Positions 3,277 to 47,007 of a DNA stretch of 64,000 nt are shown here, piece by piece (the stretch's first letter is position 1; each line of letters opens with the position of its first letter). Below the pieces are notes generated by a model, which searched no databases, was not told the DNA's origin, and saw only the letters and a program-made list of their open reading frames with translations. The stretch comes from Escherichia coli (GTDB taxonomy: Bacteria; Pseudomonadota; Gammaproteobacteria; Enterobacterales; Enterobacteriaceae): NCBI GenBank assembly GCA_002099625.1, contig GCA_002099625.1_4857.1, one strand, 5' to 3'. The translations under genes and the position numbers were made by a program.

Positions 3277-3323
3277 CAGATAGCGCTATGGGGCAAGGAA
3301 GCCCCAATCAAAGGAGTTTGGCA

Positions 3324-4526: not shown

Positions 4527-4533
4527 CTTGTTT

Positions 4534-4580
4534 ACGAGCCGGACTATGTTTATGGACATAGTCCGCTCGTTCTACTTTTT
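4534..4580 (+). terminator. rho-independent terminator after fibre gene
   Basis: about 14-bp imperfect inverted repeat ACGAGCCGGACTATG / CATAGTCCGCTCGT followed by TCTACTTTTT, just before the RBS of the first Cys-rich peptide gene. Confidence 0.5.
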
Positions 4581-4591
4581 AAGGAAGCGTA

Positions 4592-4984
4592 ATGGCGATA
4601 TCTATTAAAGACGTCAGAAACCGCGTCCAGATAGTCGAAGCTAACATGGCGACAGGCCCCCGTATCGACGCGCAAGTGGCCTCTAAAGCCCATAATGCGG
4701 CAGACCGATTTGGGGGTTGGACGAAAGCACAGCTAGATTGCGGCGGGACATGTTCTTGGACGTGCTCTAACGGTTGCTCGCATGGCTGTTCGAGCTGTTC
4801 AGGAAGCTGTTCTGCTTCTTGTATCGGTAGCTGTTCTTCGACGTGTGGCGGTAACTGTTCTGGTTGCTCTGGTTGTTCTGGTGGTTGCAGTAGTAGCTGT
4901 ACCGGTAACTGTTCAGGTGGTTGCGGCGGCTCTTGTTCCGCAAACTGCTCCGGGGCCTGCTCCGGCGGCTGTTCAGGTCGCTAA
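4592..4984 (+). CDS. Cys/Ser/Gly-rich repeat peptide A (putative radical-SAM substrate / precursor-like protein)
   Basis: 130 aa; AAGGAAG RBS then ATG; N-terminal about 49-aa Cys-free leader-like region, then 81-aa core with 22 Cys at period about 4 (CSxx repeats); ends CSANCSGACSGGCSGR. Confidence 0.6.
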   Translation: MAISIKDVRNRVQIVEANMATGPRIDAQVASKAHNAADRFGGWTKAQLDCGGTCSWTCSNGCSHGCSSCSGSCSASCIGSCSSTCGGNCSGCSGCSGGCSSSCTGNCSGGCGGSCSANCSGACSGGCSGR

Positions 4985-4994
4985 GGGGGATTAA

Positions 4995-5399
4995 ATGGCA
5001 ATTGGATTAAAAGAACTGAATAACCGATTAAACACGATCGATGCAAACGCTTTAAAGAACACCACGAATGTGCAAAACTACATTCGCAATAAAGCTACGA
5101 ATAACGCCGACTTGTTCGCAGGTCAAGGCCGTTCGCACTATGACTGTGGCGGCACATGCTCTTTTAGTTGCTCGAGTTGTTCTGGCGGGTGTACTGGGTC
5201 CGCTACGGGTGGTTGTGGGTCGACTTGTTCCGCAAACTGTGTATCGGGCTGTAGCAGCAGCTGTACGGGCTGTAGCTCTTCGTGCTCGGGTGGTTGTAGC
5301 GGCACGTGCACAGGCAGCTGTTCTGGGGGTTGTGGTAAATCCTGCTCCGCAAACTGCTCAGGTGCGTGCTCTGGTGGTTGTTCAGGTCCTAACTCCTAA
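4995..5399 (+). CDS. Cys/Ser/Gly-rich repeat peptide B (paralogue of A)
   Basis: 134 aa; AGGGGGA RBS then ATG; leader-like N-terminus similar to A (M-A-I-x-(I/L)-K-(D/E)-(V/L)-(R/N)-N-R); core begins HYDCGGTCSFSCS and ends CSANCSGACSGGCSG as in A. Confidence 0.6.
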   Translation: MAIGLKELNNRLNTIDANALKNTTNVQNYIRNKATNNADLFAGQGRSHYDCGGTCSFSCSSCSGGCTGSATGGCGSTCSANCVSGCSSSCTGCSSSCSGGCSGTCTGSCSGGCGKSCSANCSGACSGGCSGPNS

Positions 5400-5414
5400 C
5401 TGACGGAGGCTTAT

Positions 5415-5621
5415 GTGATCAGTCTCAAGGCTATTCGAAACCGTCTCGTTACGGCAGAAGGTTACATTACAACCGCACAGGCAAACAACTATATCGCTAA
5501 CCAGGGCACCGTGTCAACCACGAACAACCTGGCTGGTTTACCGCTTTCCCACTATAACTGTAATGGTGGGTGTAGCTGGTCCTGCAGCGGAAGCTGTAGC
5601 CGTGGAGCGGGGAATCGATAA
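5415..5621 (+). CDS. short Cys-rich peptide C (truncated-core paralogue of A/B)
   Basis: 68 aa; GGAGG at 5405-5409, GTG start (an ATG at 5413 runs straight into TGA); leader similar to A/B (MISLKAIRNRL); core only CNGGCSWSCSGSCSRGAGNR. Confidence 0.45.
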   Translation: MISLKAIRNRLVTAEGYITTAQANNYIANQGTVSTTNNLAGLPLSHYNCNGGCSWSCSGSCSRGAGNR

Positions 5622-5643
5622 CAGAAAACGTTCGGAGTATTAA

Positions 5644-6531
5644 ATGAAAAACGATTTGCATCTTGCGTATAAAACCACATTCAACCACCCGCTGCATCTA
5701 TCTTCCCCAGACTCGGTGCGTGCACACCTCGCTGACAAAGTCAGACTGATTGCACAGATTCCTGGTGAGTGGCCAAAGGTTCGTGGTCGCTTCTTGACCG
5801 ACAAGAAGAACTACACCGTAGAAAATACGTTTAAGATCCGTGATATGGTTGCAGAGGCCATCGTTATCTTTAACGGCGATGGTAACTCTCGCGGCGTGTT
5901 AGTCGACGGTAAGTATTTCTTCAGTGAAGGGATTTTGAACAACAGCGTCGATTTAGAACTGATGTTTACACCGTTTGACGAACTTGAAGCAAAACCGATG
6001 GCGCGCCGTTGGTGGAGTCCGGACTATCTGGGCTCGTTCCCTTACTACTTTGTACTGGTACCTGCCGATACGGAAACGTATTTCGACACCGAACCATACA
6101 TCGATATCGAGGGGTATAAAGAACTCGGCATCACCCGTTTAGCGGACATGATGGCGTATAGCTATAAGTTCGTGTGGGATAAAAAGCGTTCTGTCTGGTA
6201 TGCGCTGACTGACGATTTTGAAATCACCAAGCGTATTCGTAAGCCGTGGATGCAACACCTGGTTCAAACTCGATATGGGGATTACCCGGCGACAGAAGCG
6301 GATTTGAGTAAGCTGGTAAGTTTCCTCTTAACGAAGGTGGATTTAACGAAAGAAGAAGCAGAAGCTGTTTCTGAGATTCGTGGTCGTTCGGTAACGTTGG
6401 CCGATTTGAAACGTCTGAACGAAAGACACGCCGACCTGAACAAAATTTTAGCTGCCTATCACGACCCGATGTTACTGGTGCCTGGCGCTAACGTAGACGA
6501 AGATCCTTTATTCGCCATTGATTATATTTAA
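5644..6531 (+). CDS. hypothetical protein (Cys-peptide/rSAM operon member)
   Basis: 295-aa ORF with ATG start and GGAG RBS; no motif recognised; sits between peptide genes and rSAM genes. Confidence 0.55.
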   Translation: MKNDLHLAYKTTFNHPLHLSSPDSVRAHLADKVRLIAQIPGEWPKVRGRFLTDKKNYTVENTFKIRDMVAEAIVIFNGDGNSRGVLVDGKYFFSEGILNNSVDLELMFTPFDELEAKPMARRWWSPDYLGSFPYYFVLVPADTETYFDTEPYIDIEGYKELGITRLADMMAYSYKFVWDKKRSVWYALTDDFEITKRIRKPWMQHLVQTRYGDYPATEADLSKLVSFLLTKVDLTKEEAEAVSEIRGRSVTLADLKRLNERHADLNKILAAYHDPMLLVPGANVDEDPLFAIDYI

Positions 6532-6553
6532 AAATATACTGGAGCAACCTGCA

Positions 6554-7468
6554 ATGACAGATCAAGTAGAATCCAGGATCTCGTCTGAACTGTACGACAA
6601 ACCGTCAATTCTGTCGGTTGTCGCAACTTCTAAGTGTAACTTAGACTGTAGCTTCTGTGGAGGGGCTTATTACATGGATAGAGAAGATACTTCTCGTGAG
6701 TTTCAACGTGAAGAGATTCTCTCGATTTTAGAGAAGAATCCGGATATCGGTGAGATTCATTGGACGGGCGGTGAGCCGCTGTTAGCGCAGCGTAAGATTG
6801 AAGACTTCGTGAACGAGTTGAAGGAGTCTCATCCGAACCTCCGTCATCACATGTACACCAACGGTTTAAAGATGCGTAAATCACATCTGCCGTTGCTGAA
6901 ACAGTTCGACCTTATCTTTGTGTCCATTGACGGCTACAAGAAGTCGGAACGTCCGTTTATGAACTTTGTAAACGGTGGTAATCACGAAGCGCTGGAAGTG
7001 CTGTACGAGCTGGACAATTATTACACCTGGGGTGTGATGACGCGTGACCAGTTAGGCGATAAACGCTGGTACGAAGATTTCATCGAGCTGCACCGAGCAA
7101 TCTATCATTACCGTCCAGGTGGTGTGTCGTTGTTGTTTGATGCGATGATGCCGAAACCGTTATCGCCAGACCACGTCATGAACTTCATGTACGGGTATTG
7201 GAAAATACTCGACAATATCGAACGCCTTAACATGCAGAACGACTCTGAATGTGGGCTTGCGATCAGTAAAATGTTCGATACCGAGTGCAACACGTGCAGT
7301 GAAGTGCTGTGGCTTAACGCCGACGGTACGCAGGAGCAAATTCAGAACGCCCCAGAGATATTGGAAGTCGGCTGTAATCGCCTGGCGCGTTCTATCGGCG
7401 TTGATGCGTATAACTACATCAACCGTGTAATTTCTGCTAAGCGTAAACGGGCGGCGAACAATGAGTAA
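6554..7468 (+). CDS. radical SAM enzyme (putative peptide/protein-modifying maturase)
   Basis: ORF 6518-7468 trimmed to ATG 6554 (GGAG upstream; 6518 appears to be TTG); CNLDCSFC = CxxxCxxC 4Fe-4S/SAM motif; WTGGEPLL SAM-binding glycine motif; four C-terminal Cys (partial auxiliary-cluster region). Confidence 0.75.
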   Translation: MTDQVESRISSELYDKPSILSVVATSKCNLDCSFCGGAYYMDREDTSREFQREEILSILEKNPDIGEIHWTGGEPLLAQRKIEDFVNELKESHPNLRHHMYTNGLKMRKSHLPLLKQFDLIFVSIDGYKKSERPFMNFVNGGNHEALEVLYELDNYYTWGVMTRDQLGDKRWYEDFIELHRAIYHYRPGGVSLLFDAMMPKPLSPDHVMNFMYGYWKILDNIERLNMQNDSECGLAISKMFDTECNTCSEVLWLNADGTQEQIQNAPEILEVGCNRLARSIGVDAYNYINRVISAKRKRAANNE

Positions 7469-8789
7469 TAGCGAACAGCAAATCCAGTACACACCACGCA
7501 CGTATCAGGTTGTGACTAACCTGTCATGTAACCTGGACTGCGAATACTGCTACGAGCGTAAATATCCGCGTAACAACAAAGTAGCAGACGTGATTGATTT
7601 TATCCACGCTTGTTTCGAGCGTGATAAAGATATCCCGAACGTTGAAGTCATCATCGATATCATCGGTGGTGAGCCGTTCATGCAGCCTAAACTTCTTTTG
7701 GCGGCCTTTGAAACCGCAGAGAAGTTATGCGCAGAACACAATCGCCCGTATATGTTCAGTATCTCCACGAACGGTACGCTTCTGGACCGTCCGCTGAACA
7801 AAGAAATTATCGAGCGCTGGAAAGACAAACTGTCTATTGGGGTCTCCATCGATGGTTTACCTGAAGTCCATGACAAATATCGTATCTTTACCACGACGCG
7901 TGAAGGGTCGTACGAAGCTGCGGTACGCGGTTACAATTATCTGAAGAGTGTTGGCATCGCTGAACTGGGCGTAAAAGCGACGTTTACGATCGATACATTG
8001 CCGCACTATGCCGCCAGCATGAAATCGTTAATTGACATGTCCGGCGGTGGTACCATTTCTGGTAATGTAACGTACGAAGATATCCTGCCGCGCCATATGG
8101 CGTTGGATATCGCGAACCAGATGATGGACGTGATGGACTACTGGATTGAGAAGGGTCTGCACACCAACCCGCGTAACACGATTACACACATCATCCCGGA
8201 TGGCCTGAACTTTATGGCAACTTGGGACCCGGATTGGCGTGACAAACTCTTGCACGACGACTCTGTTCGTCTCGACCCAGAACGCCTGAAACCGTACTGC
8301 GGTACGTTGACGCACATGACCTGTCTCGGCTTTGATCGCAAGATTTACGGTTGTAACCGTTTCATGTCCACGGTAACTTCCCGCTCTGCTGTAGCGGAAC
8401 TGGTCGGTCGTGAGTTTGTGAGTCTGGACGGTGGTAAGCTGTTAGAAGAGATTCAAACGCAGTACACCAACTACCCAGAAACCTGTTTAGGGTGTCCGAT
8501 GAAGCACAGCTGCGGTAGCTGCGCAGCAGCATCGTACGAAAACGGTGAAGGTACACTGGAAGACCGTAAAGCGTATCACGCCGAGCGTCGTCAGTGTGGT
8601 TGGACTACTGCGAAGCTGATGGCGGCGGAATATTGGTATCAAAAAACTGGTACGACTCGCGCATCAGATTTGCACGATAAATCCATGTGCTATTGTTCAC
8701 GTTGTGTACGCCAACGTGCCGAAGCAGAAAAATTACAAAACGGAGCCCAGAATGAAGTCAATACTGATTCACAATTTTACGAAGCGTAA
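7461..8789 (+). CDS. radical SAM enzyme with SPASM-like C-terminal Cys cluster
   Basis: 442 aa; ATG overlaps the stop of the upstream rSAM gene by 8 nt (translational coupling); CNLDCEYC motif; IGGEPF motif; C-terminal PYCG..MTCLG..GCNRF..ETCLGCPMKHSCGSC seven-Cys pattern typical of SPASM auxiliary clusters. Confidence 0.8.
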   Translation: MSNSEQQIQYTPRTYQVVTNLSCNLDCEYCYERKYPRNNKVADVIDFIHACFERDKDIPNVEVIIDIIGGEPFMQPKLLLAAFETAEKLCAEHNRPYMFSISTNGTLLDRPLNKEIIERWKDKLSIGVSIDGLPEVHDKYRIFTTTREGSYEAAVRGYNYLKSVGIAELGVKATFTIDTLPHYAASMKSLIDMSGGGTISGNVTYEDILPRHMALDIANQMMDVMDYWIEKGLHTNPRNTITHIIPDGLNFMATWDPDWRDKLLHDDSVRLDPERLKPYCGTLTHMTCLGFDRKIYGCNRFMSTVTSRSAVAELVGREFVSLDGGKLLEEIQTQYTNYPETCLGCPMKHSCGSCAAASYENGEGTLEDRKAYHAERRQCGWTTAKLMAAEYWYQKTGTTRASDLHDKSMCYCSRCVRQRAEAEKLQNGAQNEVNTDSQFYEA

Positions 8790-28172: not shown

Positions 28173-29060
28173 TTATACCTCGCTTGGATCGTCCAGATCG
28201 TTGAACTGGAGATACAACGTTCCGACGATGGTGGTACAAGTAACAGGCAGTTTCAACACCAGCGCATACTTGTACTTCGCGTTTGTCGGCATTGCAACAG
28301 GGTCATTCAAACCAACGCTGACAACCTCCGCGCCCGCCAAACCGTAGGAAGCGGAGGTGGTCGCTACCCATGCAGTACCCGTGATATCTTTCAGCAGGTT
28401 AACCATATCCGTTAACGGCTGTCCGGACAGAATACCCGGCACGTATGCCAGCAACTCATCACGGTATTTGGTGAAGTTGTACGGGTAGGAATAAACCTCT
28501 GCAATGACCGCAGTAACGGTTTCGGAACCCATCTGACCGTTCGGGTATTTCAGACCGGTCAGGACGTTAGTGGTGACTGCAGAGACTAACGACTCATCGC
28601 CTTTCACGACTTTAAATGTCGCCTGTCCAACCCAACCGATAGACTCAGGATGTGCAACAACACGCACAGTTCCTTCGGTCTTATCACCGTTCCATTCGAT
28701 ATCTGCGTCCTGCAGGTCAGCTTCTTCCAGAACAAAACCGTAACGTTGGTTCAGTCCAGGAATGGCCGCATACAAGGTTTCGTTGGATGGGCCGATCGCC
28801 AACGTGTCACCAATCAGCACTAACAAGTCTTCGATTTTCATGCGGTTGTAGAAGACATTTTTCTTACCCGACCAGGTAGAGCCCGTTACCCCATCTGCCG
28901 TAATTTTAATTTGCGTGTTACGGTTAGTCAGCGTTTCCTTCTCCGTACCACGGATGTCCTTTGGCGAGGACCAGATGATGTCAGTCATCTTAACAGCAAG
29001 CGAGTTCTGTGCGTTCACTGCTGCCAACAGGACGTCTTTAGAAGGTTGATAAATAGCCAT
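28173..29060 (-). CDS. approx 280-aa fibre-family paralogue 2 of 7
   Basis: 295 aa, ATG start; MAIYQPSKDVLLAAVNAQN...NRNTQIKI...FYNRMKIEDLL. Confidence 0.6.
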   Translation of the reverse strand: MAIYQPSKDVLLAAVNAQNSLAVKMTDIIWSSPKDIRGTEKETLTNRNTQIKITADGVTGSTWSGKKNVFYNRMKIEDLLVLIGDTLAIGPSNETLYAAIPGLNQRYGFVLEEADLQDADIEWNGDKTEGTVRVVAHPESIGWVGQATFKVVKGDESLVSAVTTNVLTGLKYPNGQMGSETVTAVIAEVYSYPYNFTKYRDELLAYVPGILSGQPLTDMVNLLKDITGTAWVATTSASYGLAGAEVVSVGLNDPVAMPTNAKYKYALVLKLPVTCTTIVGTLYLQFNDLDDPSEV

Positions 29061-39716: not shown

Positions 39717-39746
39717 GTACCAGCCACCCCGAAGGATAGCTGGTAT
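39717..39746 (-). terminator. imperfect terminator hairpin after the 1005-aa gene
   Basis: TACCAGC...CCGAAGG...GCTGGTA imperfect inverted repeat followed by a T-rich minus-strand tract that overlaps the promoter-like box. Confidence 0.35.
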
Positions 39747-39750
39747 ACAC

Positions 39751-42700
39751 TTAGTTAGTTTCGAGTGGATCGTCTGGAATAGTAAACGTTATATCAAGTG
39801 AAGCTGTTGTGTGGTCGGGGATTGCCAAGTCGTGATAGATATCATGCCCTGCACCATGTTCTTTATAGAGGAGATACAAGCCGATTGCACGCATCGCTTC
39901 CCCGGTATAAAACCCAAAGGCTTGACCGTTATCCGTAGTAGGGTTTGCCCACGGAGACCAGGCACCGTTAATGGCTTTTCCTGGAATGTCTGTGACGGTG
40001 AAGTTGTCACCCATCTCTTTCATCCCCATATCCATAATACGGCTCAACCCTTCCACTGTACAGCCAGCCATTGCTGCATAAGCGCTGCCTGCTATCCAGA
40101 GCGCACACATATGTGCTGTGAAATCGTTCTCTACCCACACCGGTTTATTTGGTGCCGTAGGGAATTCATTCGGCGTGTGGTTGTCAAAGCGGTCTAAGAA
40201 CCCTACGAGCCACTTAGCCCAATTTTCAACGTACACTACTAGCTCAGGTGGAACCTCTTTACCACGCACAACTAATTCGTACCAACAACGCGCAGCGGCG
40301 TTATACGCGCGCGGCTGATAACCTGCCCACGGATGTCCATCTCCCCAATGGAACGTTGTCCACGTATCTGCCGGGCCGTAAGAGTAATTATCCCAACGGT
40401 TCCAAATATACGCCGCACAACCTGGACCTAACTCACCTATCTGCTTTTGGTAGTTGGTTTGTGAATCGTGCATAAACCGAATCTGATTTAAGAGCCAGTC
40501 TTTGTAGCGATCATCGGTGTGTATGGTGTACATAAACGGATACTGATAGCCAGGATACGGCATCCCGTGCCATGCACCTAGCTGATACGTTCCTTCCGAA
40601 TAGATGTTCGAGAACGGTATCGTTCCTGGGCAATACGCGAGCGAGTCAAGACGGTAATCTTTTATCGTACAATCGCCCACTTTACCCGTAAATGCAGAAC
40701 CTCCCCGAATTACAATACGGAACGTTAATGTCCAGCCATCGTCTGCATTAAACAGTGGCGGAACATCGTTTACGCAATACCAGCTAAAGTGCGCATTCTC
40801 CACAGCCGAATCGGGCAGTATGGTTACCTGATCGATAGTTGTATAGTTTGGCGCAGCCGGTTTTGGTTCGACGTCGGTATCGTGGTCAGGTTGATAGCCC
40901 GAGAGTGTTGCGTCTTCAGGGCGAATAATAACCTGTTTCCATTCCCCGTTAGTCGCGGGCAACATCCACCACCAACGCCACTTGTCGGTATCTTCGAAAC
41001 GGAAGTTGAAATCAGCATCAGCACGATAGACAATTGACTGTGGGGGTGCAACTCCGGCATCGGTTAACCAGAAGCCGATAATGAAACCCGCATCGTCGTT
41101 CGGGAATAACGCTTCTACGATTGTGCCTGAACGACCATCGTAAATGTTGTTCTCAAACTTCTCCTGCCACGTACACCCACCGTAGTCCGAACATGCTCGC
41201 GCATCGGCAATGATGTAATCTTCGCCGTTGGCCGGATTGGTCATTCTGGCCAGATGCCCTAAATCGATGTCATGCTGTTCTACTTCCATCGATGTTGATC
41301 CCGGAAGCGTACAGCCGTACCAGTTTACTTCTTCAGTATCCGCTTTGACGGGGTTAATATCCACCATCACTTTACACGCAAGTGCATCACCGTTGTCGCA
41401 AACACCGCCATACGTCACACGTAACTTCGATTGACTGTTTATCCTGAAACGCACGGCTTGCTGTTCCATAAAGTTCTGCACAGCTTTCTCAGAACGGAAC
41501 ACAATATCACCATTTTCATCACGACTGTAAGCGACCTCAACAGTGCTGGGGTATTTATAGTCGTACGAGATACCGTCTGTAAATGGTGTTTCGGCTAGCT
41601 TAGAACGTCGGAAAAACTTGTCCTTCGCATCGATATACGTGTATTCGTGCGCTGTATAGAACACAGAGTCTAGTGCGGCTTTATAGCGCGCTTCACCTGT
41701 GATACGCCAGAGCAGATAGCAGGCATCAATAAACCACACTTCCGCATCTGCCGCGTTACCCATCTGGTTAACAGACCCTTTTAACGGGGTATGAACCGGA
41801 CGGTTGTGCCACGGCTCATTGCGGTCAAACAAATAACCGCCGTGCTCTACAGGTACCTGGGAAGCGTAGTTAATCAAATATACACCGTTAATACTGGTGT
41901 CCTTTAATTGTACGGTTCCTTTCTGGGCATCAGGTAAACCGGATTCGATGACATCGCCGTCTTGAACCTTCTCACCCGTCCACACAACAAACCAGTCAGG
42001 TTCGTACCGCGGACCTTTCGAGGTAGAACCGCCCCACATTGGTGTATATCCGGTTGGGTCGTTTAACATCCTGTTCCAGTCCACCCATGCTTTTACATCG
42101 TAAGGTTTCTCTGGATTGGTGATTAAGTAATCAGGGACTTTAGACCAGTCAATTAACCCGTTTTCCGATTCCTTAATTTTCTGTACGTCGGCATTAACCG
42201 CACCCCAGGTAGGATGGCCACGGTGCGCAGAAAAGAAATTGTTCAGATACTCACCAAAGAATGGTGCGCCTTGGGGTATCTGGCAACGCCCGTTCGTAAA
42301 CGTTACCGGTACACACTTGTAACCACCGTGGGTTGGCTCGGTCGGATGCACTGGATAGTCTGCCAGCACCGGTTCTTTACCGTTAACTAGCCAGTTACAA
42401 ATCCATCGTTGCGGTGAATCGGGAATGGCCTGACCTGCGTAATAGTAGGTAGCGTACGCTTCCCATGCATGAATCGCCGCATCTAACCACATCTGGTTTT
42501 TGGTAGCAATGTACATGTGACAGTAGCCAATAATCAGCAACGATTGACCTTCTGTGGTGGCGTCACCATTAGGTTGATACACTGCCATGGAGTCAGCAAT
42601 GAAATGCCGGTTATTAGATAGCACCCCTTCTGGGTTAATCAGATAATGGTCATTGTGGGCGTCGTTAGTTAAGCCGGTGTTTCGACGAACAAAGTCCTGA

Positions 42701-42768
42701 TGTCCGTAAGCCAGCGACAGTGCGTAGTTCAGCGCATGTCGTTTAGCAGAGATTTTAAATTTGCGCAT
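39751..42768 (-). CDS. large tail-associated protein, possibly a carbohydrate-active enzyme (depolymerase-like)
   Basis: 1005-aa ORF; very Trp/Tyr/Gly-rich with helix-rich segments reminiscent of alpha/alpha-toroid glycosidases (LLIIGYCHMYIATKNQMWLDAAIHAWEAY; AHMCALWIAGSAYAAMAG); family assignment not verifiable by eye. Confidence 0.55.
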   Translation of the reverse strand: MRKFKISAKRHALNYALSLAYGHQDFVRRNTGLTNDAHNDHYLINPEGVLSNNRHFIADSMAVYQPNGDATTEGQSLLIIGYCHMYIATKNQMWLDAAIHAWEAYATYYYAGQAIPDSPQRWICNWLVNGKEPVLADYPVHPTEPTHGGYKCVPVTFTNGRCQIPQGAPFFGEYLNNFFSAHRGHPTWGAVNADVQKIKESENGLIDWSKVPDYLITNPEKPYDVKAWVDWNRMLNDPTGYTPMWGGSTSKGPRYEPDWFVVWTGEKVQDGDVIESGLPDAQKGTVQLKDTSINGVYLINYASQVPVEHGGYLFDRNEPWHNRPVHTPLKGSVNQMGNAADAEVWFIDACYLLWRITGEARYKAALDSVFYTAHEYTYIDAKDKFFRRSKLAETPFTDGISYDYKYPSTVEVAYSRDENGDIVFRSEKAVQNFMEQQAVRFRINSQSKLRVTYGGVCDNGDALACKVMVDINPVKADTEEVNWYGCTLPGSTSMEVEQHDIDLGHLARMTNPANGEDYIIADARACSDYGGCTWQEKFENNIYDGRSGTIVEALFPNDDAGFIIGFWLTDAGVAPPQSIVYRADADFNFRFEDTDKWRWWWMLPATNGEWKQVIIRPEDATLSGYQPDHDTDVEPKPAAPNYTTIDQVTILPDSAVENAHFSWYCVNDVPPLFNADDGWTLTFRIVIRGGSAFTGKVGDCTIKDYRLDSLAYCPGTIPFSNIYSEGTYQLGAWHGMPYPGYQYPFMYTIHTDDRYKDWLLNQIRFMHDSQTNYQKQIGELGPGCAAYIWNRWDNYSYGPADTWTTFHWGDGHPWAGYQPRAYNAAARCWYELVVRGKEVPPELVVYVENWAKWLVGFLDRFDNHTPNEFPTAPNKPVWVENDFTAHMCALWIAGSAYAAMAGCTVEGLSRIMDMGMKEMGDNFTVTDIPGKAINGAWSPWANPTTDNGQAFGFYTGEAMRAIGLYLLYKEHGAGHDIYHDLAIPDHTTASLDITFTIPDDPLETN

Positions 42769-42771
42769 GGC

Positions 42772-43245
42772 CTAGTATCCTGTTCCGCAAATGGCCCCTT
42801 TCCAGGTTGTACCGCCATCCGTAGATGACAAAGACAACACATCCTCGGCGTCCAGCTTGTACGATAACGGAGGTTCTGCACCGTTAGGCCATTTAACCGA
42901 AGTCGGCCAGGTGATTTTGTTTGCACCGGTACCCTGACGTAGCGTCAGTAATAATTCATATCGCGTACCCGGAACCGGGTCGGTAATAGGTGTGATAGAA
43001 AGCGCAGTGGTGGGGTCACCTAAACGGATGATGAAGTCGTCCGCAACATTGGGATCTATTTCAACGATACCGTCAGCACCGGATAAGTTTTGGATAGGGT
43101 TTGCGTCTGCCCCACCACCGCCGATTTCACTGAGGGGAAGTTTGTACTCCTTTTCATCAACGCTGATAAGCGCTACTGCGCTCGACTTATCGCCGTTGTA
43201 AGAATCGAGTTCATGCAAACGTTTCTTTTTGACTACAGTTGCCAT
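42772..43245 (-). CDS. small structural-type hypothetical protein
   Basis: 157-aa ORF tightly packed between the two large genes. Confidence 0.5.
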   Translation of the reverse strand: MATVVKKKRLHELDSYNGDKSSAVALISVDEKEYKLPLSEIGGGGADANPIQNLSGADGIVEIDPNVADDFIIRLGDPTTALSITPITDPVPGTRYELLLTLRQGTGANKITWPTSVKWPNGAEPPLSYKLDAEDVLSLSSTDGGTTWKGAICGTGY

Positions 43246-45194
43246 TATGCATCGTCTCCGTAGGTTAACACTGCATCATCACCGATGCATAAAACAGTTT
43301 CTTCATCCAGACTTGCCACAGCTTCTTTTTCATTAAACGCCGTGAATGTAAAGGTAGCCGTCCATGCCGGCGAATCGTCACTCATCGGTGCAATCAACGG
43401 CTCGTTTGTTGGTGTAATAACCCCTGTCGAGATGTCTTCACGTGACAAGTTTAAACCGCACAACTGGTTTACAACTGTCGCTAAATCAGCATAGGTGTCG
43501 CCGGGAGCTACAGTAACTAGTATCGGTCCTTGCGGGTCGATAATTTTATTAGCGACTAGACGGTCGTAATAGACGGTAACCTTCTTGCCGTTAGGTTTAC
43601 GTGCTTTTGCAATGTACGCTTGCGTGGTACGGGCACTTTCAACACCTAAGTCGATAGGCCCCACTCCGCTTATTACAATCTCGTCAGGCGATAATGACAA
43701 TCCGTTATCGTGATTAATTAACGCCACAACGAGGCCCTTGGAGTCTAATCTAAGGTCAGGTGTAAAACGATTAGGGGGACTGTATTTTGCATTCAGTGCA
43801 GGTTTATCAACTAACCAAAAGCCGCTTGGTACGCAGGCCAAAATCACCCAGGCGGTATTTGTTGTCGACGGCCAATTAGGTAAAGTGTCGTAAGTTGGGT
43901 CATCGCACGAATCGCGATAACCGTGTTCACCCAGGAGAACATCGATATTATTAATTAGTTCAATTGCCCTAGTATCGTTCCCTAATTGTCTTTCAAATAA
44001 GGCAACACCGGCAGTTCCTTCAACCCAAACGCCGTCGACCGCAGTCGGATAACCCAATTCAACCTTATAAGGTGTGTAACCGCTGCATTCGGACGTTACT
44101 GCTCGAAACTTTTCCATGTAGCTGTGACACTGCGAAGCCAGCTCCGGTTTGAACTTAGCGATAAACAATCCACCCCAGCTTGACTGGTCTAAAGCGGCAG
44201 CGTCGTCATCGACATCGGCTCTAACGCCTTGACGCAATCGACCCTCTTCTTCTATCCAAAACTTGTCTAAAATTAGATTGCCTAACTCTATCGCCTTCGC
44301 GGCGTAGCTATCAAATCCAACCCTTCCCAATATCTCGAATAAAAACCACAAATCAACACAATGTTCCAAGGCCGAGAACGGTGCTACATAATTTTCATCG
44401 AACGTTTGCGTACCATCGGGGTTTGTAATAAAGCGGCCTTTACCCCCGAGATATAAGCCGTATCTCCTATCGTTTACATCGCTAACACGGAATCCTTCAA
44501 CCCAACTGAGCGAAAGAGTGAGCTTACTCCTAACTTGACCAACTAAGGTGCCGTTTGGATATTTCTCTAGGTAAAAAGCAAGGGCGTATAATACCCATGC
44601 CACATTGCCCATCCGATAATAGTTACGTGGAGACTTGGCAGACAAACGATTTACATAAAACTTAATACCACCGTCTGTGTCCACTAAAGCACAAAGCCCT
44701 TTAACATATTTCTCAACGGCTCCGTGATCTATAGCCATTAGTGCTAAAGCTGCCACCGCCTGATCGTACGTGTAACATCGATCTTTCATTACCTTGATAA
44801 CATCAGGTTCGGCGTCGCTGGGCATTAAGTAACTGCGTATACATAGAGGAAATTCCAGGGTTGTAATCCACTCTCCAGTTGATATATTGATTAGTCTAAA
44901 CTGTTTAGCACCGGCCCACGTACGTTTAAAAGAAAACGCCCCTGAGGCATCAAGAGGGGCTTCACCTAGCAAATACTCCCCGGTGGTGTAAGCATACATT
45001 ACCACTTTGTGGTTTGTGGGGTTGGTAACGTTGCTTTTTCCCGTCACGACCCCGATATAATCGTAGTCTACATTCTGATCTACGGACAGACTTACACTCG
45101 GGTCGTAGACCTCAGGAAGATCCAAGGTTAGCATTGTCTCTGTAGTATATTCGACCAACTCAGCAAAGTTGCGGATTATAGGTTTCGTCGTCAC
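43245..45194 (-). CDS. tail protein with putative enzymatic domain and a C-terminal copy of the shared fibre module
   Basis: ORF 43245-45290 trimmed to GTG 45194 preceded by GGAGG (the longer ORF would run through the upstream terminator); helix-rich N-terminal region; C-terminal segment NGKKVTVYYDRLVANKII matches the module signature. Confidence 0.55.
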   Translation of the reverse strand: MTTKPIIRNFAELVEYTTETMLTLDLPEVYDPSVSLSVDQNVDYDYIGVVTGKSNVTNPTNHKVVMYAYTTGEYLLGEAPLDASGAFSFKRTWAGAKQFRLINISTGEWITTLEFPLCIRSYLMPSDAEPDVIKVMKDRCYTYDQAVAALALMAIDHGAVEKYVKGLCALVDTDGGIKFYVNRLSAKSPRNYYRMGNVAWVLYALAFYLEKYPNGTLVGQVRSKLTLSLSWVEGFRVSDVNDRRYGLYLGGKGRFITNPDGTQTFDENYVAPFSALEHCVDLWFLFEILGRVGFDSYAAKAIELGNLILDKFWIEEEGRLRQGVRADVDDDAAALDQSSWGGLFIAKFKPELASQCHSYMEKFRAVTSECSGYTPYKVELGYPTAVDGVWVEGTAGVALFERQLGNDTRAIELINNIDVLLGEHGYRDSCDDPTYDTLPNWPSTTNTAWVILACVPSGFWLVDKPALNAKYSPPNRFTPDLRLDSKGLVVALINHDNGLSLSPDEIVISGVGPIDLGVESARTTQAYIAKARKPNGKKVTVYYDRLVANKIIDPQGPILVTVAPGDTYADLATVVNQLCGLNLSREDISTGVITPTNEPLIAPMSDDSPAWTATFTFTAFNEKEAVASLDEETVLCIGDDAVLTYGDDA

Positions 45195-45208
45195 AATTTC
45201 CTCCAGAA

Positions 45209-45250
45209 ACAAAAAAAAATAAGCTACCACACATATGATCGTGTGGTAGC
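45209..45250 (-). terminator. rho-independent terminator
   Basis: GCTACCACAC / GTGTGGTAGC 10-bp inverted repeat; minus-strand T-run TTATTTTTTTTTGT. Confidence 0.55.
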
Positions 45251-45264
45251 CTACTCGTACGCTG

Positions 45265-45660
45265 TTAGTGCAGTGTAGCACTGTGCACAACAGTTAACCC
45301 GCGACGTTTGATCTCATCCGCGATGGATTGCAACAGCTTATCGTAACCCACCTTTACAAATTCAGGTAAGCCACGGTCAACCATCTCCATCTCGGTGATT
45401 TCTTCACGGAAAACTTGACAACAGCCTTCTAAATAACGTTTAGCTTCTGTCACGTCATCGACATACCGCGCATAACTCAGGGCGATCGCGTAACCTTCTG
45501 CAATAAACGCATACTTCATGAAGACTTCTGGGTCGAGTTCTTCAACTGCCACGTCTAGACGTGAAGCGGTCTGACGTACAGAGTTACGTAATGATTCAGA
45601 AAACAGTGTAGTCGTAACCATATCCTGATTAGGAACGGTTTTAGGCATAATCAATTTCAC
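45265..45660 (-). CDS. hypothetical protein
   Basis: 131-aa ORF. Confidence 0.5.
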   Translation of the reverse strand: MKLIMPKTVPNQDMVTTTLFSESLRNSVRQTASRLDVAVEELDPEVFMKYAFIAEGYAIALSYARYVDDVTEAKRYLEGCCQVFREEITEMEMVDRGLPEFVKVGYDKLLQSIADEIKRRGLTVVHSATLH

Positions 45661-45671
45661 GAGGACTCTCC

Positions 45672-46055
45672 TTACGATAACTCGCCCATGTAAATTACTT
45701 CATAACCGAACCACTCACCGATTTCAATAAGGTAAGAAACTAGCAAGTGGCGATGACAGAATTTCCCCGGTGGGCAATAGCACATTAGTACGACCTCGCC
45801 CCGGCGGAGAATCTCTATCAGCTTATCAGTGTCTTCATCAAACAACCGACTAAGTTTCTGCAGGTAGCGTTTGGTATACGCAGCTTCTGCGTCGGGGCCT
45901 TTGTCAGACTTCTTGTAGTCCATCAGAAAGTCCCAGTCGGGTGCCAAATATTTCAGCCCCGACTTAACCGTTATATCCAGCTTTGGCAAATTCCGTTTTT
46001 CAGCTATCCGCCACTTCGCCAGTTGGAGCGTCCACAGCTTTACTTGCTTTGGCAT
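45672..46055 (-). CDS. hypothetical protein with Cys/His motif (possibly DUF488-like)
   Basis: ORF 45672-46106 trimmed to internal Met (MPKQVKLW) by residue arithmetic; motif VLMCYCPPGKFCHRHLL; my manual read of this stretch disagreed with the ORF-track frame by 1 nt, so coordinates follow the track. Confidence 0.4.
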   Translation of the reverse strand: MPKQVKLWTLQLAKWRIAEKRNLPKLDITVKSGLKYLAPDWDFLMDYKKSDKGPDAEAAYTKRYLQKLSRLFDEDTDKLIEILRRGEVVLMCYCPPGKFCHRHLLVSYLIEIGEWFGYEVIYMGELS

Positions 46056-47007
46056 TATTCGCTCTCTCTTTTTCTTTCTCCTGAAGCGCTTTAAAATGCG
46101 GTGCATATTCGCACCACTCTTCTGCTGTAAATGACGTGATAAACAGTCTTTCGGTATCTTCAGTTACCGTAAAGGTTGTGTGATTTCTTTTCGGGTCCTT
46201 AAAGTTAGCAAAAGTCGGTACGTCCAAACCCATAGCAGAAATAGCACCACCAAGAGCAGAGCACCATACCCGTCTGTAAGCATCGTTGATTTTAATCTCC
46301 CATCCCACAGACGGTGTAATACCAAGACTACGATAATTCTGCGACTTTGCCGACGGATGGGCATAAACGATGAGCATGTTATTCTCACGGTCTATCGCGA
46401 ATTCGTAGTTGTTGTAGTTACTGACCTGCACCAATCTACGAATGTCTTCCGGCAACTCCTGCCACATTTCCAGTTTCTCTTTATCCCACGCAGGTGTTAG
46501 AAGCGGTGGAACGCGGCCGGCATGATCTTGGAAATACATCAGTTCGCTATAAAGGTTCTTTAAGCGAGCGTACTCGTCTAATGTCCAATCTCCCAGCTCT
46601 AGACTATTCTCCAACGCATCTAACTTATTCCAGCCAACAACTGCATAGGCGTGGTGCTGTTTGCGTGTAATGTCGCACATCAGTTTAGCGAGGCCGTTAA
46701 CAACATTGCCTTGCTGAACCAGAGGCGACCAGCCGTTAGCGTAGCCGGCGCTAACGACAGGCGGAAAGTTCTCTTCCCCGAGCACCGCCCATGTAACACG
46801 ATCGGTTTGTGCGTGGTATCTGTCCATTAACCGTTCAACAATGGCCACACTACAAAGAATTTCCATGAAGTTCGCGTTACCTCCATTCCACATGGAGAAA
46901 TATGCAGGACGGACATGTCGTGCTTCATTGGCCGGTGCTTTGCACAACAGCTGATACATTATCCAGGTGGAATCCAACCCTGCTGAAAACGAAACGAGCT
47001 TCGTCAT
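46000..47007 (-). CDS. PP-loop ATP pyrophosphatase superfamily protein
   Basis: 335 aa; N-terminal VSFSAGLDST resembles the SGGxDS PP-loop of QueC / PAPS-reductase-like enzymes; specific function not assignable. Confidence 0.6.
   Translation of the reverse strand: MTKLVSFSAGLDSTWIMYQLLCKAPANEARHVRPAYFSMWNGGNANFMEILCSVAIVERLMDRYHAQTDRVTWAVLGEENFPPVVSAGYANGWSPLVQQGNVVNGLAKLMCDITRKQHHAYAVVGWNKLDALENSLELGDWTLDEYARLKNLYSELMYFQDHAGRVPPLLTPAWDKEKLEMWQELPEDIRRLVQVSNYNNYEFAIDRENNMLIVYAHPSAKSQNYRSLGITPSVGWEIKINDAYRRVWCSALGGAISAMGLDVPTFANFKDPKRNHTTFTVTEDTERLFITSFTAEEWCEYAPHFKALQEKEKERANNAKASKAVDAPTGEVADS

What the first reader, a model, noticed from the sequence alone, without database searches (positions are those of the whole stretch)
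39751..45194. Two large tail proteins that look enzymatic rather than fibrous
The 1005-aa and 649-aa proteins are rich in Trp/Tyr/His and contain long helix-rich segments resembling alpha/alpha-toroid glycoside hydrolases or lyases, unlike the beta-rich Ser/Thr/Gly composition of the fibre paralogues. The 649-aa protein also carries the shared fibre module at its C-terminus. They are candidate capsule or LPS depolymerases on the virion.
Basis: inference. Interest (0 to 1): 0.45.

Follow-up and report, generated by a model that had tools for sequence, protein, structure and literature searches.

The report
Two glycosidase-like virion proteins, jumbo phage
In this SPN3US-like giant Salmonella phage, two large virion-type proteins are predicted to fold like sugar-cutting enzymes: one belongs to a widespread, already recognised tail-protein family, and the other is a new fusion of an enzyme-like module to the phage's filament-forming domain.

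Summary
The window is a Seoulvirus (SPN3US-like chimallivirus, 96-97% nucleotide identity). Window 39751-45194 (minus strand) is one three-gene unit bracketed by terminator-like hairpins: a 649-aa, a 157-aa and a 1005-aa protein.

The 1005-aa protein is the orthologue of SPN3US gp124, which mass spectrometry places on the tail. It is homologous over its full length to phi92 gp141, an uncharacterised "glycosidase". Two GH8-like acid motifs are invariant across the family.

The 157-aa protein is a conserved adapter that always sits directly upstream of the large gene.

The 649-aa protein is the new part. An unnamed (alpha/alpha)6 module, otherwise found at the C-terminus of enterobacterial prophage tail fibres, is fused in front of the gp122 DUF7941 domain. 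None of the 37 matching phage records, almost all SPN3US-like jumbo phages, has this form.

Catalysis, substrate and the virion position of the 649-aa protein remain untested. The composition argument holds only for the 1005-aa protein.

The parts
43245..45194 (-). Gene for the 649-aa fusion protein: an (alpha/alpha)6 module followed by a DUF7941 N-terminal-type domain. GTG start at 45194.
   Evidence: ORF list. RBS GGAGG at 45200-45204, 5 nt before the GTG. PHROG and Pfam hits. AF2 model.
43779..45194 (-). N-terminal module, residues 1-472: helix 10-25, beta-sandwich 36-114 (44853-45089), (alpha/alpha)6 barrel about 130-455 (43830-44807). This 1.4 kb is absent from SPN3US and from all 37 matching phage records.
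43248..43778 (-). C-terminal domain, residues 473-649. This is the SPN3US gp122 orthologue: a DUF7941 N-terminal-type globular domain (Pfam match 481-629, window 43308-43754) with a short conserved tail and no linker or C-terminal domain.
   Evidence: Pfam PF25613, E = 6.3e-16, profile positions 4-161 of 276. Near-identical DNA to SPN3US gp122 from about codon 15. Alignment with the window paralogues. The profile hits PDB 9xqd PHIKZ127, E = 2.4e-8.
42772..43245 (-). Gene for the 157-aa adapter (SPN3US gp123, phi92 gp140 homologue). Its start overlaps the stop of the 649-aa gene by 1 nt (TAATG).
   Evidence: phrog_9017, E = 1.6e-59. The C-terminal ~95 aa are conserved in the gene directly upstream of every 1005-aa homologue examined, while the N-termini vary (T7 tail-fibre N domain, TSP1/Gp66 N domain).
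39751..42768 (-). Gene for the 1005-aa tail protein (SPN3US gp124, phi92 gp141 family). Starts 3 nt after the adapter's stop.
42409..42591 (-). 1005-aa protein, barrel segment 1 (residues ~60-120), containing the invariant E73 in the motif TTEGQS.
   Evidence: DSSP helices 72-89 and 92-109. E73 is invariant in 16 diverse homologues. Motif-level resemblance to E. coli BcsZ TTSEGQS.
41575..41778 (-). 1005-aa protein, barrel segment 2 (residues ~331-398), containing the invariant D341 and E343 in NAADAEVW.
   Evidence: Helices 340-357 and 360-376. Invariance. Resembles BcsZ SASDGDVW.
40564..41574 (-). 1005-aa protein, large beta-rich insertion (residues ~399-735) with a CBM-like beta-sandwich. 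A first beta-rich insertion spans residues ~121-330 (41779-42408).
39844..40563 (-). 1005-aa protein, barrel segment 3 (residues ~736-975), with the conserved W-[ND]-R-W-D (D793) and G-E-x-x-R (E957) motifs.
   Evidence: Six long helices between 756 and 971. Conservation.
45217..45256 (-). Terminator-like hairpin (17-pair stem plus a T run) just upstream of the unit. Conserved in SPN3US.
39718..39745 (-). Terminator-like hairpin (12-pair stem, TTCG loop, T-rich tail) directly after the stop of the 1005-aa gene.

Best explanation
Window 39751-45194 (minus strand) is a three-gene late unit. It encodes two independent carbohydrate-active virion appendages.

(1) The 157-aa protein is an adapter. 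Its variable N-terminus docks to this phage's tail or baseplate, and its conserved C-terminal ~95-aa domain holds the 1005-aa protein. The 1005-aa protein is an (alpha/alpha)6-barrel enzyme of GH8/GH48-like (clan GH-M-like) architecture. Two beta-rich, CBM-like insertions interrupt the barrel. E73 is the likely general acid, and D341/E343 lie in a GH8-like second motif. It most likely hydrolyses a surface or matrix glycan on the way to the outer membrane.

(2) The 649-aa protein carries a different (alpha/alpha)6 module, GH15/MmpH-like (clan GH-L-like). Candidate catalytic residues are D144 and E392. The module is fused to the N-terminus of a DUF7941 N-terminal-type domain. DUF7941 domains polymerise head to tail: the linker and C-terminal domain of one subunit bind the N-terminal domain of the next. 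A protein with only the N-terminal domain can be bound but cannot extend the chain. It would therefore sit as an enzyme-bearing cap on a DUF7941 filament.

Shown: the ORFs, the homologies, the predicted folds, the invariant acids, the gene order, and the virion-tail location of the SPN3US gp124 orthologue.
Inferred: catalysis, the adapter role, the cap position and the substrate class.
For: Folds:
- AF2 models are confident in the relevant regions.
- Foldseek gives GH48 and CBM11 at probability 1.00.

Conserved acids:
- E73, D341 and E343 are invariant in 16 homologues down to 28% identity.
- The motifs TEGQS and AADAEVW each occur once in the 31,882 ORF residues of the window.
- They resemble BcsZ TTSEGQS and SASDGDVW.
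- In the 649-aa module, D144, E277, D281, D330, D336 and E392 are invariant down to 25% identity.
- MmpH uses an Asp in the alphaA-alphaB loop and a Glu base (PMC9883506).

Virion location:
- SPN3US gp124 gave 79, 72 and 64 spectra in complete virions and none in tailless particles. gp123 gave 5 spectra in one complete-virion sample (PMC5105663 Table S4).

Adapter:
- The small gene with the conserved C-terminal domain lies directly upstream in phi92, rV5-like, Vibrio, Atoyac14 and 7-11 phages.
- Its N-terminal domains are phage-specific: PF03906 in a T7-like phage and PF18668 in an rV5-like phage.
- It is fused to the large protein in PCH45.

The module is a phage tail-tip domain:
- It lies at the C-terminus of prophage fibres with PF08400, PF12571, PF18668 or PF03406 N-termini.
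- It is also fused to nozzle and baseplate-hub proteins.

DUF7941:
- Pfam hit, and a PhiKZ gp127 hit in the PDB.
- The Goslar preprint reports head-to-tail filaments and DUF7941 proteins carrying GH, CBM or LRR domains (10.64898/2026.04.21.720040).
Against: - No activity has been measured for any member of either family that I could find.
- There is no HMM-level link to any CAZy-linked Pfam or NCBIfam model or to any PDB sequence.
- hhalign and Smith-Waterman against a real GH8 (BcsZ) are not significant: probability below 1%, and 49 of 500 and 14 of 300 shuffles reach the observed score.
- The GH8 catalytic-base position is not identifiable. Foldseek does not rank GH8 first.
- The DUF7941 part of the 649-aa model has pLDDT below 50.
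- SPN3US gp122 was not seen in wild-type virions.
- Family B proteins stay with tailless heads in SPN3US, whereas PhiKZ gp127 sits on the peripheral baseplate. The place of the 649-aa protein on the particle is therefore open.
- High conservation of the 1005-aa family across hosts argues against a serotype-specific depolymerase.
Confidence: 0.55

Rival explanations
1. Both (alpha/alpha)6 domains are non-catalytic receptor-binding (lectin-like) modules. They keep the sugar-binding pocket of an ancestral hydrolase but only bind surface glycans.
For: - No sequence-level membership in any GH family.
- The GH8-type catalytic base is not identifiable in the 1005-aa family.
- The N-module occupies exactly the position of receptor-binding tips in prophage side tail fibres.
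- Conserved acids would also be kept for binding alone.
Against: - The residues that are invariant over 25-28% identity are acid pairs in positions typical of catalytic residues: the start of an inner helix, or the alphaA-alphaB loop.
- Receptor-binding tips normally diverge fast, while these pockets are fixed.
Confidence: 0.2
2. The 1005-aa protein is mainly a structural baseplate or fibre-branching scaffold. Its barrel is an evolutionary relic, and its conservation reflects assembly contacts rather than a substrate.
For: - 40-60% identity over the whole length, beta-domains included, across myo- and podoviruses of many hosts.
- In phi92 it lies inside the baseplate gene block, directly after the hub and spike genes.
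- phi92- and rV5-like phages carry several further fibres next to it.
Against: - In the T7-like Aeromonas phage Atoyac14, the protein follows a short T7-fibre-N-domain adapter and precedes the holin gene. No other fibre gene is annotated in the 8.8-kb stretch examined, so there it appears to be the distal receptor-interacting part.
- The invariant acid motifs are hard to explain for a pure scaffold.
Confidence: 0.1
3. The 649-aa protein is not a virion component at all. It would be a soluble enzyme made late and released at lysis, or a poorly incorporated mosaic product of recombination. The DUF7941 domain would then be a leftover of the gp122 gene into which the module was recombined.
For: - SPN3US gp122 was not detected in wild-type virions and was seen only in one mutant preparation.
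- The fusion is absent from all 37 matching phage records, and only one distant counterpart (P0001) exists.
Against: - The ORF is intact and has a good RBS.
- All family-invariant residues are kept.
- The same architecture is maintained in P0001 at 68% and 33% identity, which implies selection on the fusion.
- Its stop overlaps the start of the adapter gene by 1 nt, and the adapter gene ends 3 nt before the 1005-aa gene.
Confidence: 0.15
4. The barrels carry out non-hydrolytic chemistry, either polysaccharide lyase or sugar epimerase/isomerase, as other (alpha/alpha)n toroids do.
Against: - Epimerisation of free disaccharides makes no sense for a virion appendage.
- The acid motifs fit inverting hydrolases.
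Confidence: 0.05

Closest known systems
SPN3US gp124 with gp123, and phi92 gp141 with gp140 (PHROG 2871 and PHROG 9017 tail proteins)
   Same: - Orthologous: 97-99% identity to Seoulvirus gp124 and 41% over 96% of the length to phi92 gp141.
- Same small gene directly upstream.
- The SPN3US protein is tail-associated by mass spectrometry.
- phi92 gp141 is listed as a predicted glycosidase.
-.
   Different: Nothing substantive for the 1005-aa and 157-aa pair. The family is still biochemically and structurally uncharacterised: no PDB relative was found.
Glycoside hydrolase family 8 / clan GH-M (for example E. coli BcsZ, C. perfringens CPF_2247 3ren, GH48 cellulases)
   Same: - A TEGQS motif with an invariant Glu, and A-[AS]-D-[AG]-E-x-W with an invariant Asp and Glu. 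They come in the same order as BcsZ SEGQS (E55) and ASDGDVW (D116/D118), and at the same spacing once the first insertion is excised at boundaries I chose from the secondary structure.
-.
   Different: - No significant sequence or profile similarity.
- The barrel is split by about 210 and about 340 residues of beta-rich insertions.
- No identifiable Y-D-A-x-R base motif.
- The protein is a virion component with an N-terminal helix and a partner adapter.
Goslar DUF7941 'fibre cloud' proteins carrying glycoside hydrolase, CBM or LRR domains (gp86, gp92, gp161), and PhiKZ gp126/gp127
   Same: - Chimallivirus-specific DUF7941 domain combined with a carbohydrate-active domain.
- The DUF7941 N-terminal domain is homologous to PhiKZ gp127, which is modelled at the outer peripheral baseplate.
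-.
   Different: - Here the enzyme-like module is N-terminal to the DUF7941 domain. In the Goslar proteins and in the window's own paralogues, DUF7941 comes first.
- The protein has the N-terminal domain only, with no linker or C-terminal domain.
- SPN3US family B proteins copurify with tailless heads, which conflicts with a baseplate-only location.
Lambdoid and P2-like prophage side tail fibres of Enterobacteriaceae (PF08400 Stf-type, PF12571, PF18668 N-termini) with the same C-terminal module
   Same: The 470-aa beta-sandwich plus (alpha/alpha)6 module is homologous at 40-60% identity, with all invariant residues shared.
   Different: In those proteins the module is the C-terminal tip of a fibre. 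Here it is the N-terminal part, and the anchor is a DUF7941 domain at the C-terminus.
GH15 / MmpH / GH125-type (clan GH-L-like) inverting alpha-glycosidases
   Same: - An invariant Asp at the alphaA-alphaB junction and an invariant Glu later in the barrel, as in MmpH D47 and E262.
-.
   Different: - 8-13% identity, and no HMM match to any GH Pfam, even for distant stand-alone relatives.
- Catalytic equivalence was not checked by superposition.
Classical phage tailspike depolymerases (trimeric right-handed beta-helix, for example P22 gp9 or phi92 EndoN)
   Same: A virion-borne, carbohydrate-directed appendage encoded next to other tail genes.
   Different: The fold is an alpha/alpha barrel, not a beta-helix. 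The 1005-aa family is conserved across hosts rather than serotype-specific.

Membership tests
SPN3US gp124 / phi92 gp141 tail-protein family (PHROG 2871) | Full-length sequence homology to family members | tested here: met
   phrog_2871, 1505.8 bits, E reported as 0, residues 1-993. 520 of 540 matching phage records cover at least 80% of the query.
SPN3US gp124 / phi92 gp141 tail-protein family (PHROG 2871) | Small adapter gene with the conserved C-terminal domain directly upstream | tested here: met
   The 157-aa gene at 42772-43245. Homologues lie upstream in phi92, rV5_ev146, Vibrio D532, Atoyac14 and 7-11.
SPN3US gp124 / phi92 gp141 tail-protein family (PHROG 2871) | Component of the virion tail | not testable with these tools
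   Only by transfer from the 97%-identical SPN3US gp124: present in virions, absent from tailless particles (PMC5105663 Table S4).
Glycoside hydrolase family 8 (CAZy GH8, Pfam PF01270) | (alpha/alpha)6 barrel fold | tested here: met
   [not shown]
Glycoside hydrolase family 8 (CAZy GH8, Pfam PF01270) | Significant sequence or HMM match to the family | tested here: not met
   No Pfam hit at E <= 1 for the full protein or E <= 10 for a barrel-only construct. hhalign against BcsZ gives probability below 1%. Smith-Waterman is not above shuffles.
Glycoside hydrolase family 8 (CAZy GH8, Pfam PF01270) | Catalytic acid Glu in an S-E-G-Q-type motif, and the A-[ST]-D-[AG]-D signature (signature recalled from memory; BcsZ sequence read) | tested here: inconclusive
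   TTEGQS (E73) and NA[AS]D[AG]E-x-W (D341, E343) are invariant in 16 homologues and unique in the window. The second acid is Glu, not Asp, and the equivalence rests on motif resemblance only.
Glycoside hydrolase family 8 (CAZy GH8, Pfam PF01270) | Catalytic base (Asp in Y-D-A-x-R for the BcsZ/CelA type) | tested here: inconclusive
   No such motif is present. The candidates D793 (W-[ND]-R-W-D) and E957 are conserved but not invariant.
DUF7941 (Pfam PF25613; SPN3US paralog family B) | HMM match above the gathering threshold | tested here: met
   59.1 bits against a cut-off of 27, residues 481-629, profile positions 4-161 of 276.
DUF7941 (Pfam PF25613; SPN3US paralog family B) | Complete module: N-terminal domain, linker and C-terminal domain | tested here: not met
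   Only the N-terminal-type domain is present, and the protein ends 20 residues after the match. Full-length members exist in the window, for example 28173-29060.
DUF7941 (Pfam PF25613; SPN3US paralog family B) | Homology to the solved PhiKZ gp127 N-terminal domain | tested here: met
   A profile of the window's N-terminal domains, including the 649-aa C-terminus, hits 9xqd_0 PHIKZ127 at E = 2.4e-8.
DUF7941 (Pfam PF25613; SPN3US paralog family B) | Head-to-tail filament formation and attachment to the virion | not testable with these tools
   Known only from the Goslar gp22 negative-stain images and AlphaFold predictions.
GH15 / clan GH-L-type hydrolases (for the 649-aa N-module) | (alpha/alpha)6 barrel closest to GH15-like enzymes | tested here: met
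   [not shown]
GH15 / clan GH-L-type hydrolases (for the 649-aa N-module) | Sequence or HMM membership | tested here: not met
   No Pfam or NCBIfam hit for the module. None for 10 distant stand-alone relatives. No PDB sequence hit with the profile.
GH15 / clan GH-L-type hydrolases (for the 649-aa N-module) | Catalytic acid and base carboxylates | tested here: inconclusive
   Invariant D144, E277, D281, D330, D336 and E392 are compatible with MmpH D47 and E262. No superposition was possible.
Beta-helix tailspike depolymerases | Right-handed parallel beta-helix catalytic domain | tested here: not met
   Both models are alpha/alpha barrels with beta-sandwich accessories.

The most novel reading that the evidence does not exclude
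The 649-aa protein would be the first case in which the chimallivirus DUF7941 filament system has captured a receptor-directed enzyme module from the pool used by ordinary prophage tail fibres.
- The module is mounted in the reverse order, in front of the DUF7941 N-terminal domain, by recombination within the first ~15 codons of gp122.
- If DUF7941 chains grow from the virion outward by linker-to-N-domain contacts, this architecture marks the distal end. It would show that a cargo-less cap (gp122) can be turned into an enzyme-tipped cap in one step.
- Separately, the 1005-aa family and the N-module family (at least 834 clusters at 50% identity) would each found a new CAZy glycoside hydrolase family.
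Probability: 0.3. Interest if true: 0.55.

Novelty: new variant of a known kind. Interest (0 to 1): 0.36.

Why it matters
- **Two uncharacterised enzyme families.** If active, the 1005-aa protein belongs to one of the most widespread uncharacterised phage tail enzymes: 540 phage records from jumbo myoviruses to T7-like podoviruses. It has no solved structure and no CAZy family. Its substrate would have to be something shared by many Gram-negative hosts.
- **A gain of function within a tight clade.** The 649-aa fusion appears within phages that are otherwise 97% identical. That makes it a natural experiment for how SPN3US-like phages change host interaction, and for the polarity and cargo capacity of DUF7941 filaments. 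Those filaments were proposed only in 2026, and their position on the virion (head or baseplate) is contradictory in the literature.
- **Practical use.** Both proteins are candidates for enzyme-based biofilm or surface-glycan tools, but only after activity has been shown.

Tried and rejected
- **Sequence routes to a CAZy family.** Pfam, NCBIfam and PDB phmmer/hmmsearch gave no hit, whether run on the full proteins, on family profiles or on a barrel-only construct of the 1005-aa protein.
- **Direct test of GH8 membership.** I compared the 1005-aa family with E. coli BcsZ fetched from MG1655. hhalign (global and local) and Smith-Waterman with shuffles were not significant. The best local alignment even chose a different hairpin of the barrel. 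GH8 is therefore kept as a resemblance only.
- **Bridging through distant relatives of the N-module.** A full HMMER scan found 834 representatives. None of the 10 stand-alone members I tested has a Pfam domain.
- **Foldseek against the PDB for the 1005-aa model.** It gave only weak matches (TM below 0.2) and no solved homologue.
- **Searches for the long form elsewhere.** It is absent from 50,697 phage records and from IMG/VR close relatives. The 5.8-billion-protein collection holds one distant counterpart only.
- **'Beta-helix depolymerase' and 'polysaccharide lyase' readings.** Rejected on fold.
- **Composition as evidence.** Rejected for the 649-aa protein.
- **phi92 primary paper.** PMC3457257 is not held in the library, so the gp141 'glycosidase' label is second-hand.

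Full report
**What is there.**
The window is a Seoulvirus, an SPN3US-like chimallivirus. Window 39751-45290 matches 37 phage records, almost all SPN3US-like jumbo phages, at 96-97% nucleotide identity. None of them covers more than 74% of it.

On the minus strand there are three tightly packed genes:
- 43245-45194 encodes 649 aa, from a GTG start with GGAGG 5 nt upstream.
- 42772-43245 encodes 157 aa. Its ATG overlaps the preceding stop as TAATG.
- 39751-42768 encodes 1005 aa and starts 3 nt after the preceding stop.

Strong terminator-like hairpins lie immediately upstream (45256-45217) and downstream (39745-39718) of this block.

In SPN3US numbering the 1005-aa protein is gp124 and the 157-aa protein is gp123. 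The last 177 residues of the 649-aa protein correspond to gp122.

**Check of the observation.**
The ORFs and coordinates are correct.

The 'alpha/alpha toroid' reading is confirmed by structure prediction:
- 649-aa model: pLDDT above 90 over residues 1-470. It has a helix at 10-25, a beta-sandwich at 36-114 and an (alpha/alpha)6 barrel at about 130-455.
- 1005-aa model: mean pLDDT 87.8 and pTM 0.83. Twelve barrel helices are supplied by three segments (about 60-120, 331-398 and 736-975), separated by two beta-rich insertions.

The 'shared fibre module' at the C-terminus of the 649-aa protein is real. Pfam DUF7941 matches at E = 6.3e-16. The same domain lies at the N-terminus of the paralogues between 13.4 and 33.4 kb (alignment).

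The composition argument is only half right:
- W+Y+H is 12.7% in the 1005-aa protein, against 8.3% for all long ORFs. It is 7.9% in the 649-aa protein.
- The Ser/Thr/Gly difference from the paralogues is a few percentage points.

**The 1005-aa protein and its adapter.**
The 1005-aa protein belongs to a very large and well-conserved family.
- More than 300 clusters in the protein collection match it at 44-99% identity.
- 540 phage records match it. They include phi92 gp141 (41% identity), rV5-like phages (26%), 121Q, 7-11, Rosemountvirus, Serratia jumbo phage PCH45 and T7-like podoviruses.
- It has no Pfam, NCBIfam or PDB-sequence match.

Structure comparison points to glycoside hydrolases:
- Foldseek is weak overall but gives GH48 and CBM11 at probability 1.00. 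It shows there is no solved homologue.

An alignment that includes the most distant phage homologues leaves five invariant acids: E73, D341, E343, D593 and D699.
- E73 lies in T-T-E-G-Q-S.
- D341 and E343 lie in N-A-[AS]-D-[AG]-E-x-W.
- Each motif occurs once in the 31,882 ORF residues of the window.
- They look like the E. coli BcsZ motifs TTSEGQS and SASDGDVW. From my own knowledge of GH8, those carry the catalytic acid E55 and D116.

This is a motif-level resemblance only. hhalign and Smith-Waterman against BcsZ are not significant, and a GH8-type base cannot be identified. I therefore describe the protein as working like a clan GH-M-type inverting hydrolase, and I do not file it in GH8.

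On location, published mass spectrometry of SPN3US found gp124 in complete virions (79, 72 and 64 spectra) and not in tailless particles. gp123 gave 5 spectra in one complete-virion sample (PMC5105663 Table S4). phi92 gp141 is listed as a predicted 'glycosidase' in a review that cites Schwarzer 2012 (PMC5380687; also PMC10844046). I found no biochemical characterisation.

The 157-aa protein is part of the feature.
- In phi92, an rV5-like phage, Vibrio phage D532, Aeromonas phage Atoyac14 and Salmonella phage 7-11, the gene directly upstream of the large protein ends in the same ~95-residue domain (L-x-Q-G-x-G-x-N-K-V-x-W-P ... D-x-G-x-T-W-x-G).
- The N-termini of these small proteins differ. 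Atoyac14 has a T7 tail-fibre N-terminal domain (PF03906), and the rV5-like phage has a TSP1/Gp66 N domain (PF18668).
- In PCH45 the two proteins are fused.
- The simplest reading is an adapter. The variable N-terminus plugs into the particular tail, and the conserved C-terminus holds the enzyme. This is inferred from gene order and domain pattern, not shown.

**The 649-aa protein.**
The first 472 residues have no counterpart in any of the 37 matching phage records. SPN3US goes straight from the conserved terminator and RBS into a 177-aa gp122, and near-identity resumes about 15 codons into that gene.

The module is a beta-sandwich plus barrel. It is 57-60% identical to the C-terminal part of enterobacterial prophage tail fibres whose N-termini are PF08400 (Stf-type), PF12571, PF18668 or PF03406. 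It is 25-32% identical to Microbacterium and Thermus phage proteins.

A full HMMER scan finds 834 cluster representatives:
- Ten distant stand-alone members have no Pfam domain.
- Larger members are fused to podovirus nozzle proteins, a baseplate-hub N-domain or PhoD-like domains.

It is therefore an unnamed, widespread phage tail-tip module.

Invariant residues across 14 sequences down to 25% identity include D144 (Y-T-Y-D-Q-A, at the alphaA-alphaB junction), E277-H278-x-x-D281, D330, D336 and W390-x-E392-G. MmpH uses an Asp in the alphaA-alphaB loop as its acid and a Glu as its base (PMC9883506). D144 and E392 are therefore reasonable candidates, but no superposition was possible.

**The DUF7941 anchor.**
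The C-terminal domain matches profile positions 4-161 of 276, which is the N-terminal globular domain only. A profile that includes it hits the solved PhiKZ gp127 at E = 2.4e-8.

A 2026 preprint on phage Goslar reports the following (10.64898/2026.04.21.720040):
- DUF7941 is chimallivirus-specific.
- Purified gp22 forms filaments.
- AlphaFold predicts head-to-tail contacts, with the linker and C-terminal domain of one subunit on the N-terminal domain of the next.
- Some members carry GH, CBM or LRR domains after an N-terminal DUF7941.
- PhiKZ gp127 sits on the outer peripheral baseplate.

By that model, a protein with the N-terminal domain alone can be bound but cannot extend the chain. The 649-aa protein would then be an enzyme-bearing terminal cap, with the cargo on the opposite side of the domain from all described cases.

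Two facts keep this open:
- In SPN3US the DUF7941 paralogues ('paralog family B') stayed with tailless heads at unchanged spectral counts (PMC5694885).
- gp122 itself was not detected in wild-type virions.

**Origin of the fusion.**
Only one protein in the 5.8-billion-protein collection shares the architecture. This is P0001 (644 aa), from a 59.8-kb contig of a distant SPN3US-like phage.
- Its module is the closest relative of ours: 68% identity, against 60% or less for the prophage fibres.
- Its DUF7941 domain is only 33% identical.
- That contig also has a separate short gp122-like gene, 45% identical to ours.
- The linker and the first DUF7941 residues resemble P0001: '...NRFTPDLRLDSKGLVVALINHDNG' against '...NKFLPDISLNSLNLVISLVNHDLK'.

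The likely history is recombination between a P0001-like fused paralogue and the resident gp122, within the first codons of the DUF7941 domain. Loss of the module in the ancestor of all other sequenced Seoulviruses cannot be excluded.

**Comparison and verdict.**
- The 1005-aa and 157-aa pair is already known as a gene family and as a virion component. Two GenBank relatives even annotate the large protein as 'glycosyl hydrolase'. What this work adds is a confident fold, the split-barrel architecture, the invariant GH8-like motifs and the adapter pattern.
- The 649-aa protein is a new variant. It is a DUF7941 protein with an N-terminally mounted module from an unnamed (alpha/alpha)6 family, and it is absent from all sequenced close relatives.
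- 'Capsule or LPS depolymerase' and 'tail protein' (for the 649-aa protein) are not established.
- Interest is moderate to low. Virion glycosidases are a familiar theme and nothing here contradicts expectation. However, two large enzyme-like families without a CAZy home and a natural cargo swap on DUF7941 filaments are both testable.

Noticed in passing
window 13466-15643 (-), 725-aa ORF: This DUF7941 paralogue also carries a T-even GP38 adhesin domain (PF05268, E = 4.8e-18). By size it appears to be the counterpart of SPN3US gp155 (78.3 kDa), which stayed with tailless heads in mass spectrometry. That would make it an adhesin on a protein reported as head-associated.
   Followed up: partly
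window 13.4-33.4 kb (DUF7941 paralogue array) and 43248-43778: The literature conflicts on where DUF7941 proteins sit. SPN3US paralog family B is retained in tailless heads at unchanged spectral counts (PMC5105663 Table S4). PhiKZ gp127 is modelled on the outer peripheral baseplate, and the Goslar preprint proposes baseplate-anchored filaments. Co-purifying free filaments could reconcile the two, but this is untested.
   Followed up: partly
window 42799-42831 (-), residues 139-149 of the 157-aa protein: There is an Asp-box (BNR-like) motif, S-x-D-x-G-x-T-W, at the C-terminus of the adapter. It is conserved in all adapter homologues aligned (Pfam BNR only E = 0.17).
   Followed up: partly
L002 (Salmonella phage MET_P1_082_240) 8091-9103, against window ~45265-46106: Just upstream of the gp122 position, Seoulviruses differ in gene content. 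MET_P1_082_240 has three small ORFs there that SPN3US and the window do not share in the same form. This junction looks like a recombination hot spot.
   Followed up: no
L004 (Logan SRR5831594 contig, 59.8 kb) 2809-7913: In the only other phage with the fused architecture, the fused gene follows a 1532-aa long tail fibre (Phage_fiber_2, Gp34 trimer, Peptidase_S74 chaperone) and a Gp38_N protein. That contig shows no gp124 homologue nearby.
   Followed up: no
P0240, P0279, P0245, P0257, P0263 (distant relatives of the 649-aa N-module): The same (alpha/alpha)6 module is fused to podovirus nozzle proteins (PF25675), to a baseplate-hub attachment domain (PF09931) and to PhoD-like domains. This places it at the envelope-penetrating tip of unrelated phages.
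   Followed up: partly
L009 (Serratia jumbo phage PCH45) 2158-6156: The adapter and the gp124-like protein are fused into one 1332-aa protein in this chimallivirus. This independently supports the idea that the two act together.
   Followed up: partly
window 649-aa residues ~630-649 (43248-43307), and L004 homologues: The gp122-type subfamily shares a short C-terminal peptide after the DUF7941 N-terminal domain: '(I/V)-G/T-D/A-D-A/N-V/R-V-L-T-Y/F-G'. It could be a minimal docking strand replacing the linker and C-terminal domain.
   Followed up: no
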